Shown: positions 36,965 through 48,911 of the stretch, in pieces
Layout: the number at the start of each line of letters is the position of its first letter
How positions within the stretch are numbered: position 1 is the first letter of the stretch
Assembly: GCF_026210795.1 (NCBI RefSeq)
Contig: NC_089434.1
Location: forward strand, 186,001 to 250,000
DNA from: Rhizophagus irregularis
Taxonomy: Eukaryota
Reading direction: 5' to 3'
Length of the DNA stretch: 64,000 nucleotides
Made by a program: the position numbers and the translations under genes
The notes under the pieces: model-generated
What the model saw: only the letters and a program-made list of their open reading frames with translations
Told to the model about the DNA's origin: nothing
The model's database searches: none

Positions 36965-37345
36965 AGTAGTATGAAAATGCCAATTCTGGCTCACCTACTT
37001 ATCTCATAATCTAAACCGTTTATTAATATTTTCACCTACTTATATGCTACATATTTTATAACCTAAATCACCTTTTTTATATTTTTACCTACTTATCTCA
37101 TAATCTAAACCGTTTATTAATATTTTCACCTACTTATATCCTACTTATTTCATAATCTAAATCATTTATTAATATTTTCACCTACTTACCCCCAACCGAA
37201 CAAGAAATAGGATTTCAAAGCCAACAGAGCCAAAAAAAGTAAGGAAGTATTAACCCATCCAGGAAACCAGCCATGGAGTCAATAGAGCGGAATAGCAAGG
37301 CAAGCAATTTCCCTTATACCGAGAAAAAATGTAATTGAATAAAAG
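36965..37345 (+). repeat. Left TIR of element B, with internal ~41-54-bp tandem units (CACCTACTTAT...)
   Basis: Reverse complement of 48531-48911; two mismatches seen by eye. Confidence 0.97.
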
Positions 37346-37369
37346 ATTCATATATAAAAGGTTTACAAG

Positions 37370-37903
37370 ATGTCACAATACAGACCATCACTAAGACGTA
37401 TACTAGGCCAGTTTGAACTCAACATAGAAGAATGGGTAAAGGAAATAATGTGGTATTTAGATATAGCATATTTAAAAGCTTTAGATTCTGAATTTAGCAA
37501 AGAAAGTATGTTAGTATCTGGATTAGAAGAGCTAGTAGAAATATTTGATGAGATGTTAGAAGGTGATGATATATGGATACATCCATCACTTTTATCACGA
37601 ATAAGATATTCTATTCTACCAGATGAGATGGCAATATATGAAAGATTTTCAGATATCATTAAGAACTTCTCAGAGGATAAAGAATTAGCATATGCATTAT
37701 TAGACTTAGTAGAAATATTATCAAAAAAGAAACCTACAACATTCAACATTATAGATTACAATATACAAAGAATATTCACGAATCCTAATGATGAATATAG
37801 AAATGAATTTAGCATCTACCATATTAAAGGAGATGAAGATATGGACGAAGACACAGATGAAGACACAGATGAAGACATAGATGAAGTAGAGCATGCAGAA
37901 TGA
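37370..37903 (+). CDS. Hypothetical helical protein with an acidic tail
   Basis: 177-aa ORF starting just inside the TIR after TATATAAAA; DEDT repeats at the C terminus. Confidence 0.6.
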   Translation: MSQYRPSLRRILGQFELNIEEWVKEIMWYLDIAYLKALDSEFSKESMLVSGLEELVEIFDEMLEGDDIWIHPSLLSRIRYSILPDEMAIYERFSDIIKNFSEDKELAYALLDLVEILSKKKPTTFNIIDYNIQRIFTNPNDEYRNEFSIYHIKGDEDMDEDTDEDTDEDIDEVEHAE

Positions 37904-38076
37904 ATTCAATGAATACTATCAGAATCTTGCACCGACCACCGAGAGTCAGCTGAATAGACTAAAAAATGAGTTGGCTATAACTCTATGTGACGAATGTCTT
38001 ATACCAATAAGAAGCCAGGAATGTGATTGCTGGATTTTACAAATAGAGGGTTTCTAGTTCCCAGTAAAACCATTTT

Positions 38077-38868
38077 TTACCTCTCACAATCTGGAATAGG
38101 TACATCACAAATAAAATCCCCAAAATCATTCGGATTAGAAAACAACTTCTGTAAGAACTTATAAATCATATCAGCAGCCAATTCAGTCTTAGTGCCAAAT
38201 ATATTAACCTTACCAGATTTAGGCCAGATATGTACCCGAATCTTTGATGTGAAGACTATAACAATTTTAGAATGAATATCACCCGCATCATTCTTAATAT
38301 ACTTTATCGGAAAGGGGAGAATCTCACGAATACCATCTACAGATTCTAAAGCATATGCTAAGGTAGAAAGATGAATAAACTTATTACTCCCGATATTAAT
38401 CACAAATTTGTAATTACACAGGAGAGCCTTATTTCCACCCACAAGTTCTACAGAAGAAAACTCAGGTAGGGAACATTCAGAAAGGTAACGTAAGAAGATA
38501 GCAACAGGATCAAAAGACCCGAAAACTTGTATACTACCAGATCTAGGAAAATAACGAATGGTATGTACAGAATCAGCTAAAATGATAACAAACTCAATGC
38601 AAGCATTAAAAGTGCTACCATCCCCAGTACGTCGCCGTCTATTTAATGGATTGTCAGGTGTACTTCGTCTGCATCGCCTCTCACCTTTTGGTTTAGACAA
38701 GTACTGTTCATAACCCTCAAAAGCTTTATGAATAAAGTTGCTATTAATGGCAATAACATCCTTAGTAGGTTCAAGCTTATGACCAAGTACGGTGTAATCA
38801 AGCCCTTCAACATTGATCTTAAATTCAGTAACAGTAAGAGATGGAGTAAGTTCACTAAAAGTAAGCAT
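38077..38868 (-). CDS. TATA-binding-protein-like factor, asfarvirus B263R-like
   Basis: Two TBP-repeat motifs (IRYFPRSGSIQVFG; VHIWPKSGKVNIFG). AINSNFIH...GYE, GDGSTFNACIE and the terminal VPIPD match my recollection of ASFV pB263R. Confidence 0.8.
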   Translation of the reverse strand: MLTFSELTPSLTVTEFKINVEGLDYTVLGHKLEPTKDVIAINSNFIHKAFEGYEQYLSKPKGERRCRRSTPDNPLNRRRRTGDGSTFNACIEFVIILADSVHTIRYFPRSGSIQVFGSFDPVAIFLRYLSECSLPEFSSVELVGGNKALLCNYKFVINIGSNKFIHLSTLAYALESVDGIREILPFPIKYIKNDAGDIHSKIVIVFTSKIRVHIWPKSGKVNIFGTKTELAADMIYKFLQKLFSNPNDFGDFICDVPIPDCER

Positions 38869-38971
38869 GTCTGGTTTTTTCTATTGATAGAAAAGAAATG
38901 TTCAAATTATTTTATCCTAAGAAAAATCTAATTAAATAAAACTTCTTCATCAATATCTCATATGAGATACC

Positions 38972-46900: not shown

Positions 46901-47850
46901 GGCAATAGTTGGGTTCTGTCGCTCAAATCTTCTTAGAATTACCTTATCAGCTTGTACTGGAAATTCGATACCTTCAAAGTTTAACTCATTTACATACTCC
47001 TTATACTTGGAAATTCTTTCTGCATTCTTTTCTACTGGATGTAATGCTGCTAGGATTGCCCACTGGAAGCATTTGTCATCATCATTAGCTGGATTTACTA
47101 CTCCCTTTTTCGTGGCAAGATCTTTTGGGAGTGGTATATGTCCTGCTCCTGTGGGTGGTTGGAATTGCGAGATTTCTATAAATATTTTTTCTACACGATA
47201 GAATTCCCAACCTGATCCGTAATTTACATAGTCTTCTACTTTCTGCATGATTCTTGCTAATGCAAAGTTAAATGTACCATTAATATCTGTTGATGGTAGG
47301 ATTGGCATATTGCGAGTTTTAAATGGTATGTTATATCTGTAGATATACTCTACTCCATCATCTTCACTAAAGTTACCATCTCTGAATAATCCCTAGCCTC
47401 AAGGTAAGAATCTAAACGTCTTATTGTGGCAAATATTCCAATTCTTACTTTTATTGATCCCAATCGATTTCTTTCATCCTGAAGAATATTCTGGATTGTT
47501 TGACTGTGTGCTGTAAGAAATGAAGCATAGTCATGCTCTCCAGGTGTTCCTATAGCAATATCAGCCGTAAAGTTTGAGTCTGTTAACTCCTTTCCTATAC
47601 GTACCTGATCACGACGTTCAAAGACTACCTCATAATGTGTGTCTGGGTCAATTTGCATCATGCGGGTTATCTCTTCATTGGTTACCACCGCTTGTGCTTC
47701 ACGGATTTGGCGAATCTCATCCTCATATTCCTGCAATTTTGCATTTGAGCGGGGATATGGGATGGACTTGACAGGTACCTGCTTGAGTTCAGCTAAAACT
47801 GATCGGATGACTTGTCTGTGTTGGGCACTTCTTGCTTGATGTGTTGACAT
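43939..47850 (-). pseudogene. polB: Protein-primed DNA polymerase B with an endonuclease VII-like Zn domain; frameshifts near 47345 and 44155
   Basis: ADFE, CWIC...VRDHCH...HKGCN, FHNLSGYD, FIDS, KGVYPYEY, YLDANNLYG, KLMNNSVFGK, YTDTDS, LRPKMY; C-terminal LSPMDDKK...AHG in a shifted frame. Confidence 0.95.
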
Positions 47851-48053
47851 CTTGTAAACTTTTTATACTCCTCTTTTATTCAATTAGATTTTTTCTGAAA
47901 AATAAAATTAATTGTCTGCCTACCCTATGAGGGTAAAAAAAGAGGGAGACAGATTAGTACTGTCTTCCTAAACTATTCCTCACCATCTGAGTCATCATCA
48001 TCCGAGTCACCAAACACATTCTCGTCCCGATGTATTCTCTATCCTTAAGTAAC

Positions 48054-48491
48054 TTATAGTTGTAAGTTACAACGGCGAATAGCTTCTTTTACTATAATAT
48101 GCTTTACTGCAGCATTTGTTCTCTCTTTACAAGCCTTTTGATATGCCTCCCATTCAAGTTCACGGAGGATACCCTCCTCCTCCAATGATTGGCCAAGAGC
48201 ATCATTTGCTTTTTCCTTCTTTTCTACTGCTCTGTCGTATGCCTCCTCGGCTTTTTTATACCGCTTCCAGAGTACTCGTTTAGCTTCAGCTCTCCAGATT
48301 GAACTGACTTCTAGAAGATGTGTCCCGAAATTTCTACTTGGAATGTATTCCAGGATATGGCCCACAAGTTCGGGGATTACTGATACTGCGTACGGGTTTT
48401 GTTGGCTTTTTAGGATCTCCCTATTGATAGCCATAAGATCGGAGACTGTGCAGCCGAAGATTGTTGCTAACTTTTCTGCGGTATATACCAT
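48054..48491 (-). CDS. F-box + coiled-coil protein
   Basis: VIPELVGHILEYI...LLEVSSIW...LW. Confidence 0.7.
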   Translation of the reverse strand: MVYTAEKLATIFGCTVSDLMAINREILKSQQNPYAVSVIPELVGHILEYIPSRNFGTHLLEVSSIWRAEAKRVLWKRYKKAEEAYDRAVEKKEKANDALGQSLEEEGILRELEWEAYQKACKERTNAAVKHIIVKEAIRRCNLQL

Positions 48492-48530
48492 GTTATGTAC
48501 TATTTATCTGTATAGTTACTTGGTACCTAC

Positions 48531-48911
48531 CTTTTATTCAATTACATTTTTTCTCGGTATAAGGGAAATTGCTTGCCTTGCTATTCCGCTCTATTGACTC
48601 CATGGCTGGTTTCCTGGATGGGTTAATACTTCCTTACCTTTTTTGGCTCCGTTGGCTTTGAAATCCTATTTCTTGTTCGGTTGGGGGTAAGTAGGTGAAA
48701 ATATTAATAAATGATTTAGATTATGAAATAAGTAGGATATAAGTAGGTGAAAATATTAATAAACGGTTTAGATTATGAGATAAGTAGGTAAAAATATAAA
48801 AAAGGTGATTTAGGTTATAAAATATGTAGCATATAAGTAGGTGAAAATATTAATAAACGGTTTAGATTATGAGATAAGTAGGTGAGCCAGAATTGGCATT
48901 TTCATACTACT
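48531..48911 (-). repeat. Right TIR of element B
   Basis: Ends in ...TTTTCATACTACT followed by CCACCT. Confidence 0.97.

What the first reader, a model, noticed from the sequence alone, without database searches (positions are those of the whole stretch)
36965..48911. Complete Polinton-like DNA element whose morphogenetic module is a retrotransposon Gag + aspartic protease, with no reverse transcriptase
Seen: 381-bp TIRs, AGTAGT ends, 6-bp TSD, pPolB, rve integrase, and a coiled coil-capsid-CCHC-retropepsin gene. The whole interior is accounted for and shows no RT, RNase H, LTR, recognisable jelly-roll capsid, adenain or ATPase. Known: Polintons use double jelly-roll capsids, an adenovirus-like protease and an A32 ATPase, whereas Gag/retropepsin normally travel with RT. 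Inference: a chimeric self-synthesising DNA element that may package its genome in Gag particles. I am not aware of such a class being described.
Basis: partly seen in the sequence, partly recalled or inferred. Interest (0 to 1): 0.95.

Follow-up and report, generated by a model that had tools for sequence, protein, structure and literature searches.

The report
Fungal Polinton carrying a retrotransposon capsid
A 12-kb DNA transposon of a mycorrhizal fungus has no recognisable DNA-virus capsid gene and instead carries a conserved retrotransposon-type capsid-and-protease gene without reverse transcriptase, which likely builds a particle that would carry the element's DNA, a pairing that earlier papers seem to have labelled only in a figure.

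Summary
In detail: 381-bp TIRs, AGTAGT ends, CCACCT duplication, an empty site in two studies, Polinton-type polymerase motifs, rve integrase and a Gag-CCHC-retropepsin gene, with no RT, jelly-roll capsid, ATPase or adenain detected. This copy is broken, but intact 1,069-aa sisters exist in Rhizophagus irregularis. Gag-protease is a stable family gene, not a nested retrotransposon. It sits head-to-head with the integrase in 19 of 22 informative soil loci, is under purifying selection, and has relatives in Entrophospora and Paraglomus. No RT fusion was seen. A second element in this window pairs the same module with an asfarvirus-like polymerase, D5 helicase and A32 ATPase. A-runs likely shift frame between Gag and protease in some lineages, and after the protease into a zinc finger. 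The element is not new: it matches Polinton-1_GI (11,954 bp, listed as capsid-less in 2014) by host, size and missing genes, and a 2021 figure legend labels 'TBP' and 'Matrix/Capsid/NC/Pro'. I found no text treating this as a class. Particles and DNA packaging are untested, and the fold search could not run.

The parts
36959..36964 (.). Left target-site duplication CCACCT
   Evidence: empty-site joint 36958->48912 in runs X10 and X17
36965..37345 (+). Left TIR, 381 nt, starts AGTAGT, holds 52/94-nt subrepeats
37370..38057 (+). orfA, unknown function; broken here by a 4-nt difference near 37891; intact sister is 222 aa with a Cys-rich end
   Evidence: no Pfam or PHROGs hit; homolog in L004 (47)
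38077..38868 (-). TBP-like protein of giant-virus type, 263 aa, intact
   Evidence: ESM Atlas 0.96 to an unnamed Nucleocytoviricota cluster and 0.93 to TBP clusters; 55-56% to L003/L004 (47); no Pfam TBP or PDB hit
38972..39484 (+). F-box-like protein, 170 aa
   Evidence: PF12937 E 4.5e-4; L004 homolog passes the cut-off
39572..39724 (-). A-run at the protease end and a C-x2-C-x12-H-x6-C zinc finger in the -1 frame; likely a frameshift extension
   Evidence: zf-C2H2 E 0.0024 (94); same layout in L002, L003, L004, L007
39691..40180 (-). Retropepsin domain (DTG at about 40099), broken by a frameshift at 40055
   Evidence: family profile hits Ddi1 E 1e-7 and Ty3 Gag-Pol E 0.043; Pfam
40593..40601 (-). 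A9 run at the Gag/protease junction; in frame in this family, out of frame in several relatives
40736..40777 (-). CCHC zinc knuckle, followed by basic and Ser/Asp tracts
41130..41925 (-). Capsid-like domain with a conserved inserted segment; broken here by two frameshifts
   Evidence: Pfam; Atlas; model of relative P0029; spacer census
41926..42902 (-). N-terminal coiled-coil region of Gag (ATG 42902); one frameshift and one stop
42890..43947 (+). rve integrase, head-to-head with gag (start codons overlap by 13 nt); TAA at 42952
   Evidence: PF00665 E 1e-8; junction
43939..47850 (-). Family B polymerase of Polinton type, in three pieces here, one 1,317-aa ORF in L002
   Evidence: motifs; mapping to L002
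48054..48491 (-). orfH, 145 aa, unknown function; not seen in the soil family
48531..48911 (-). Right TIR
48912..48917 (.). Right target-site duplication CCACCT
20830..21581 (-). Second element: A32-like ATPase in two pieces
   Evidence: PF04665 E 3e-6 and 0.004; next to the integrase also in L027, L029 (47)
21639..23275 (-). Second element: rve integrase with a C-terminal nuclease-like domain, about 44% identical to the first integrase
23306..26594 (+). Second element: coiled coil, capsid-like domain, CCHC, A9 run plus stop, retropepsin in the -1 frame
29068..33159 (-). RNA-primed family B polymerase of asfarvirus type; link to the second element rests on proximity in this window only
   Evidence: PF00136 E 5e-44; top PDB hit 8ywg E 4e-206 against 1e-19 for the next group (8ywg as the African swine fever virus enzyme is recalled)

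Best explanation
This is a broken copy of a multi-copy Polinton/Maverick family of an arbuscular mycorrhizal fungus, likely Polinton-1_GI, that carries a conserved retrotransposon-type Gag-protease gene where a jelly-roll capsid module is missing and that likely uses Gag to build a particle predicted to hold its linear DNA and integrase. Shown: ends, duplication and empty site; sisters with an intact 1,069-aa Gag-protease; the head-to-head integrase/gag layout across divergent lineages; purifying selection; no RT in any protein or interior examined. Inferred from Polinton biology: the polymerase copies an excised linear form from its TIRs and the integrase inserts it with a 6-bp duplication. 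Inferred from retroelement biology: Gag assembles, the protease matures it, and A-run frameshifts set a low ratio of protease in some lineages and add a zinc finger after the protease in the pPolB type. Speculative: that finger, lying where RT would start, tethers the DNA through the TIR subrepeats, so the genome is co-assembled and no packaging ATPase is needed. Confidence by step: stable family gene 0.93, particle 0.7, DNA as cargo 0.5.
For: Anatomy. Three in-frame 1,069-aa sisters, 98.5-99.5% alike, in a 66-member cluster. One contig spans TBP to polymerase at depth 49.6 against about 1-9 in most flank bins in X1; gag, integrase and polymerase contigs run at 330-411 against 17.9 for a flank contig in X10. 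Integrase head-to-head in 19 of the 22 of 51 loci that reach upstream of gag, about five lineages. A second full interior with the same order and no RT or capsid, from L002 and L004, which overlap by 6,013 nt and share an inverted repeat. dN/dS 0.20-0.31 for the capsid domain (10 pairs of 5 loci) and 0.04-0.18 for the protease (3 pairs). Longest homolog 1,096 aa in three searches that covered up to 1,848-2,470 aa (14, 26 and 24 hits); 0 of 107 scanned representatives hit RT, RNase H or integrase. Model of a relative: pLDDT 90 or more over 199 residues, a long helix then four helices. No MCP found in R. irregularis (PMC10640383) or in 40 non-zoosporic fungi (PMC13533422).
Against: No particle, expression or DNA-binding data. 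Capsid homology by sequence is weak (below the Pfam cut-off for this family; PEG10 only E 0.21) and no fold comparison was obtained. Gag normally packs RNA (established knowledge), and the CCHC knuckle is kept. In run X12, depth over gag and integrase (about 780) is below that over TBP and the polymerase 5' half (1,240-2,670), so some copies may lack both; only 15 of 77 joints were shown. One locus keeps the gag start without an integrase (L036) and two have other 5' context (L009, L038). A-run length varies from 7 to 11 within one soil family, giving all three frames; no consistent RNA structure follows the runs (z -3.3 to +0.8 at 7 sites); lysine-rich ends are only 11 of 49 against 14 of 100. 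888 of 1,038 profile hits were not seen and 42 short ones were not scanned. The second element keeps an A32 ATPase, which Gag co-assembly would not need.
Confidence: 0.55

Rival explanations
1. Gag is a true family gene but does not package the DNA genome. It packs the element's mRNA or proteins (Arc/PEG10-like), scaffolds a replication or pre-integration complex, or blocks host retrotransposons, while the element moves as an intracellular transposon.
For: CCHC knuckle and basic tract are RNA-binding features (established knowledge). Nine Polintons without MCP, protease and ATPase were read as transposon-like (PMC4028283). An F-box fused to a fragment of this capsid C-terminal domain lies at window 4876-5241, so the domain is also used outside a full Gag.
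Against: Selection on both capsid and protease, an intact catalytic motif and a Gag-to-protease frameshift layout fit a maturing particle. Without RT an RNA cargo could not propagate the element.
Confidence: 0.28
2. Integrase plus Gag-protease is a mobile module of its own that has settled in different replicons (pPolB type and asfarvirus-polymerase type).
For: The same head-to-head pair occurs in two unrelated replicon contexts 20 kb apart. Integrase and capsid trees disagree for L015. L009, L036 and L038 show other contexts.
Against: No repeats or duplication around the pair. It supplies the element's only integrase. Integrases of the pPolB-type elements form one clade, 100/100, in a 10-row midpoint-rooted tree. 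Gene order around the pair is kept at 45-70% protein identity. Recombination between related elements explains the swap.
Confidence: 0.08
3. The element is a satellite that depends on a giant virus for transcription or packaging, and Gag is accessory.
For: It encodes a giant-virus-type TBP. A shared AT-rich motif precedes four genes. Asfarvirus-like sequences occur in R. irregularis (PMC10640383).
Against: No MCP was found in five R. irregularis genomes, so no helper capsid is known. Its own TBP could equally serve host RNA polymerase II (inference).
Confidence: 0.07
4. Gag-protease is the remnant of an LTR retrotransposon nested in an ordinary capsid-less Polinton.
For: This copy is full of frameshifts. 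Gag and retropepsin normally come from LTR elements (established knowledge).
Against: Five of the indels (38921, 40055, 41804, 42288, 44095) are absent from contigs of all four runs laid. Intact sisters, conserved order, purifying selection, no LTR, no RT fusion.
Confidence: 0.02

Closest known systems
Polinton-1_GI / P_Gi1.1 of Glomus (Rhizophagus) intraradices
   Same: Host genus; 11,954 bp against 11,947 bp; no MCP, penton, ATPase or protease (PMC4028283 Table S1 rows). Called MCP-less again in PMC7805220 (one passage). Likely the same family.
   Different: Sequence identity was not tested, as the Repbase record is not held. Neither passage mentions Gag.
Element labelled TBP and Matrix/Capsid/NC/Pro in Fig. 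5 of Starrett et al. 2021 (PMC8502044)
   Same: Adintovirus-like PolB with TBP and Gag/retropepsin labels (legend). Rhizophagus PolB is named in the Fig. 3 legend. DAC81703.1 is identical to a member of this TBP cluster (105).
   Different: I could not see the figure or Table S1, so the host and whether both labels sit on one element are inferred. Section 3.4 does not discuss it: no selection, distribution, frameshift or mechanism.
Canonical Polintons/Mavericks (adintoviruses)
   Same: TIRs, 6-bp duplication, protein-primed-type PolB, rve integrase.
   Different: No double or single jelly-roll capsid, adenain or A32 detected; Gag-retropepsin, TBP-like and F-box genes present.
Ty3/Gypsy LTR retrotransposons; domesticated Arc, PEG10; Ddi1
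   Same: Retrotrans_gag/Ty3-capsid-like domain, CCHC knuckle, retropepsin, A-run frameshift layout.
   Different: No RT, RNase H or LTR. The integrase is a separate gene on the other strand. The capsid domain has a spacer of 115-147 aa between its AxxW and QG motifs (20 of 34 parsed), longer than the roughly 50 aa I recall for Ty3-like Gag.
Asfarvirus-like endogenous sequences of R. irregularis (fundsbetaviruses, PMC7017919; 15-33 PolB copies per genome, PMC10640383)
   Same: The second element in the window has an asfarvirus-type PolB and no detected MCP.
   Different: It lies beside D5, A32, integrase and Gag-protease genes; Zhao et al. detected no A32 or D5, and the word gag does not occur in the main text of either paper.

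Membership tests
Polinton/Maverick (transposon definition) | Long TIRs with AG...CT simple-repeat ends | tested here: met
   381 nt, 2 mismatches, AGTAGT/ACTACT
Polinton/Maverick (transposon definition) | 6-bp target-site duplication | tested here: met
   CCACCT; empty site
Polinton/Maverick (transposon definition) | Protein-primed family B polymerase | tested here: inconclusive
   Exo and Pol motifs present (labels recalled); no profile or PDB hit; protein priming not testable
Polinton/Maverick (transposon definition) | rve integrase | tested here: met
   PF00665 above cut-off
Polintovirus/adintovirus (virus definition) | Double jelly-roll major capsid protein | tested here: not met
   No Pfam hit in 64 stretches; largest unassigned ORF 222 aa (115); no fold prediction for orfA or orfH
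Polintovirus/adintovirus (virus definition) | Single jelly-roll penton | tested here: inconclusive
   No Pfam hit; orfA and orfH lean helical by a crude propensity score only
Polintovirus/adintovirus (virus definition) | A32/FtsK packaging ATPase | tested here: not met
   Absent in 36965-48911 (94); the same scans detect it in the second element (12, 94)
Polintovirus/adintovirus (virus definition) | Adenain cysteine protease | tested here: not met
   No hit
Polinton-1_GI | Sequence identity to the Repbase record | not testable with these tools
   Only host, length and gene absences compared
Ty3/Gypsy LTR retrotransposon | Gag capsid domain | tested here: met
   Weak in this family (22), above cut-off in 3 of 107 relatives, Atlas 0.93 (61), helical model; no fold search
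Ty3/Gypsy LTR retrotransposon | Retropepsin | tested here: met
   Profile to Ddi1 E 1e-7 (87); Pfam
Ty3/Gypsy LTR retrotransposon | RT and RNase H | tested here: not met
Ty3/Gypsy LTR retrotransposon | LTRs | tested here: not met
   Longest direct repeat between the gag flanks 9 nt (118); none
Virus (particle-forming) | Genome-containing particles | not testable with these tools
   Needs expression and purification

The most novel reading that the evidence does not exclude
Glomeromycota harbour a group of integrating dsDNA viruses that replaced the jelly-roll capsid with a retrotransposon Gag shell. The integrase/Gag-protease module serves both 12-kb pPolB elements and larger elements with an asfarvirus-type polymerase, D5 helicase and A32 ATPase. 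This would explain the capsid-less Polintons and the 15-33 capsid-less asfarvirus-like PolB copies per genome reported in Rhizophagus.
Probability: 0.35. Interest if true: 0.95.

Novelty: new variant of a known kind. Interest (0 to 1): 0.76.

Why it matters
Gag shells are known for RNA and reverse-transcribing agents (established knowledge); a Polinton that uses one would join a DNA-virus replication module to a retroelement capsid. It offers a testable answer to why Rhizophagus Polintons and asfarvirus-like sequences lack a major capsid protein. It would give mycorrhizal fungi a candidate vehicle for moving DNA between nuclei or strains, and a natural DNA-packing Gag would interest delivery research. 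Intact natural copies exist, so the test is direct. If the particle holds no DNA, it remains a widespread, selected capture of Gag by DNA elements.

Tried and rejected
No whole genome was held, so no copy census was possible. Five scans of viral contigs found no relative (polymerase 18, Gag 19 and 43, integrase 84, second polymerase 100); one alignment was too variable to scan. TBP-like protein and pPolB had no PDB sequence hit. Structure prediction was queued out until late: one model was obtained, for a relative that lacks the first capsid helices; the full-length model was not ready and three fold searches did not run. The complex predictor was not available, so capsid self-association was not tested. 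RNA structure after the A-runs was inconsistent and the lysine-tail census was weak. The motif count (4 against 0.10) used a pattern read from the element, and two hits are TIR copies, so it is not a fair test. The extent and copy number of the second element were not determined; four of its proteins were not in the collection and no AGTAGT end lies in 33160-35400. Rejected: nested LTR remnant; hidden RT. PMC10748475 had no relevant words; PMC11426020 is not held.
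Full report
1. What is in the sequence. The element runs from 36965 to 48911 (11,947 bp). Its TIRs are 381 nt with two mismatches, it starts AGTAGT and ends ACTACT, and CCACCT lies on both sides. GC is about 0.31-0.38 against 0.12-0.23 in the flanks. Contigs of four public runs from four studies were laid on 34000-51000; two of them join 36958 to 48912, the element plus one duplication, which is an empty site. Genes, left to right: orfA, a TBP-like gene, an F-box gene, a Gag-protease gene on the minus strand, an rve integrase head-to-head with it (the start codons overlap by 13 nt), a family B polymerase and orfH. 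Genes and TIRs cover 96% of the element. All 64 six-frame stretches of 50 aa or more gave no RT, RNase H, capsid, ATPase or adenain hit in Pfam at E 0.01. The polymerase is called protein-primed from motifs only (labels recalled), as Pfam, PHROGs and PDB gave no polymerase hit.

2. This copy is broken, the family is not. Gag-protease has four frameshifts and a stop, the integrase a stop, the polymerase two frameshifts. Five indels (38921, 40055, 41804, 42288, 44095) are absent from contigs of all four runs, so they are private to this copy or assembly. The nearest protein is 99% identical and named for Rhizophagus irregularis, which points to that species or a close relative as host. Its cluster has 66 members; of 15 listed, three are in-frame 1,069-aa proteins. 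In run X1 one 6,751-nt contig covers TBP to polymerase at depth 49.6, against about 1-9 in most flank bins (up to 39 in three). In X10 gag, integrase and polymerase contigs run at 330-411 against 17.9 for a flank contig. Against this, X12 shows about 780 over gag and integrase but 1,240-2,670 over TBP and the polymerase 5' half, and only 15 of 77 joints were shown; contig depth is no copy number.

3. Is it Gag and a retropepsin? For this family the Pfam scores are below the curated cut-offs. Three of 107 relatives pass the Retrotrans_gag cut-off and several pass aspartyl-protease cut-offs. The ESM Atlas places the capsid part with Retrotrans_gag and Ty3-capsid clusters at 0.93, with only 116 of 256 features shared. 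A family profile of the protease hits Ddi1 at E 1e-7 and Ty3 Gag-Pol at 0.043; the capsid profile reaches PEG10 only at E 0.21, behind three coiled-coil matches. An AlphaFold model of relative P0029, which lacks the first helices, has pLDDT of 90 or more over 199 residues: two helices, an ordered insert of about 100 residues, a long helix and four more helices. That fits a two-domain Gag capsid with an insert (inference); no fold search ran. The spacer holding the insert is 115-147 aa in the 20 of 34 proteins that could be parsed.

4. It is a family trait. A scan of soil metagenomes gave 51 loci. Twenty-nine begin inside gag. Of the other 22, 19 have the integrase head-to-head (17 at E 1e-5, one at 2e-5, one by reading the frame); L036 keeps the gag start without it, and L009 and L038 have other 5' context. 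Many loci are near-identical, so this is about five lineages. Five loci continue into the pPolB (57-88% identity) and two into an A32 ATPase. L002 and L004 overlap by 6,013 nt and share an inverted repeat, giving a second full interior in the same order, without orfH, RT or capsid. Named relatives come from Rhizophagus, Entrophospora and Paraglomus. A profile search gave 1,038 clusters at 50% identity with E up to 0.001, 130 up to 1e-30; the best 150 are at most 913 aa. I scanned 107 of the 149 new ones (those of 200 aa or more): none hit RT, RNase H or integrase. Three length-bounded searches found nothing above 1,096 aa; these are word-limited and weak for absence. dN/dS is 0.20-0.31 for the capsid domain (10 pairs among 5 loci) and 0.04-0.18 for the protease (3 pairs, two of only 42 codons), by a simple counting method on non-independent pairs. 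No LTR or duplication flanks gag.

5. Frameshift signals. All 16 sequences with a CCHC knuckle have an A-run of 7-14 between Gag and protease. In the R. irregularis family the two are in frame. In the second element and six loci (L016, L029, L036, L043, L045, L051) an A9-A10 run lies just before the Gag stop, and the protease or its linker follows in the -1 frame where the sequence reaches it; L028 has A8 and does not fit. Within one soil family the run is 7-11 long and gives all three frames, most often A10 and -1 (4 of 12), so mutation or assembly error contributes. At the protease end, the window and four of six loci that reach it have GA(C/T) TTA AAA AAA AT followed in the -1 frame by a zinc finger in three distinct versions. 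No common RNA structure follows. Programmed frameshifting is therefore likely, not shown.

6. A second element. Window 20830-26594 holds an A32 ATPase, an integrase with a nuclease-like tail and a Gag-CCHC-protease gene in the same head-to-head layout, 32-44% identical to the first. An RNA-primed polymerase follows at 29068-33159, with top PDB hit 8ywg at E 4e-206 (recalled as the African swine fever virus enzyme), and a D5-type primase-helicase lies at 3-2687. No MCP or RT was detected among its ORFs of 75 aa or more. A32-integrase-gag order recurs in L027 and L029; the link to the polymerase and D5 rests on this window alone, and the element's ends are unknown. Integrase and capsid trees disagree for L015, which suggests exchange between elements.

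7. Mechanism. The polymerase would copy an excised linear form and the integrase insert it, as for Polintons (established knowledge). Gag likely assembles and is matured by the protease; selection on both and the frameshift layout support this. With no RT, packing RNA could not propagate the element, so DNA with integrase is the cargo that fits best. The zinc finger is a candidate tether to the 52/94-nt TIR subrepeats; this is speculation. The TBP-like protein and a shared motif before four genes may drive expression. The main rival is a Gag with a non-packaging or RNA-packaging role.

8. What is known. Krupovic 2014 (PMC4028283; passages and Table S1 rows) lists Polinton-1_GI, 11,954 bp, without MCP, penton, ATPase or protease, and P_Gi1.2 with an ATPase only. 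Bellas 2021 (PMC7805220; one passage) repeats that it has no MCP. Starrett 2021 (PMC8502044; passages and section 3.4; preprint passages) has a legend with TBP and Matrix/Capsid/NC/Pro; the figure, Table S1 and File S2 could not be seen because the supplement was cut, and they may hold a full annotation. DAC81703.1 in the TBP cluster fits that study (prefix recalled). Zhao 2023 (PMC10640383; passages and two of five parts) found 15-33 PolB copies per genome and no MCP. Passages only: PMC7017919, PMC5294986, PMC13533422, PMC11952901, PMC11296320, bioRxiv 2026.06.19.733378 (57), which notes Maverick-type A32 genes in Rhizophagus. Ten library searches, read as listings, showed no paper on Gag-bearing Polintons as a class. 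Kapitonov and Jurka 2006, Pritham 2007 and Koonin 2024 were not read. Three look-ups in the scan's notes showed nothing on this element.

9. Verdict. Real, and a Polinton by the transposon definition but not by the virus definition. The family is probably catalogued and its Gag probably labelled once. What appears new is the evidence that Gag-protease is a selected, Glomeromycota-wide module shared by two replicon types, with frameshift signals and a zinc finger in the place of RT. Interest 0.76; 0.95 if particles hold the DNA.

Noticed in passing
window 1-35000: A GC-rich virus-like region with a D5-type primase-helicase (3-2687), A32, integrase-nuclease, Gag-protease and an asfarvirus-type polymerase; no MCP detected; ends unknown. 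It deserves its own study.
   Followed up: partly
window 4876-5241 (+): Small ORF joining an F-box-like start (E 0.008) to a fragment of the same Gag capsid C-terminal domain (E 8e-12 to a relative); could target capsids for degradation.
   Followed up: partly
window 2948-4227 (+): Two overlapping ORFs whose residues recall a tyrosine recombinase (by eye, recalled motifs); no Pfam or PHROGs hit.
   Followed up: no
window 8339-10068 (+): Crinkler N-terminal domain (E 9e-28) followed by a protein-kinase ORF inside the virus-like region; possibly captured host cargo.
   Followed up: no
window 5216-6198 (+): F-box plus leucine-rich-repeat gene in two frames.
   Followed up: no
window 37324, 38921, 47873, 48531: The inner end of the TIR (AAAAAATNTAATTGAATAAAAG) recurs before the polymerase and F-box genes; promoter-like.
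   Followed up: partly
window 35025-36650: AT-rich tandem repeats, a perfect 50-nt palindrome at 35185-35234 and duplicated 140-nt blocks between the two elements.
   Followed up: no
window 39490-39590: Short GGCAGTG-rich repeats between the F-box and zinc-finger ends.
   Followed up: no
polymerase residues 380-415: Endonuclease VII-like zinc motif inside the exonuclease region (Pfam E 0.002, PHROGs E 7e-6).
   Followed up: no
L001 7305-8676, L021 1705-3087, L040 1775-3742: Copies interrupted or bordered by Plavaka and hAT transposases.
   Followed up: partly
L009 136-420: A small ORF upstream of a Gag without the first coiled coil and without integrase: perhaps a third element type.
   Followed up: no
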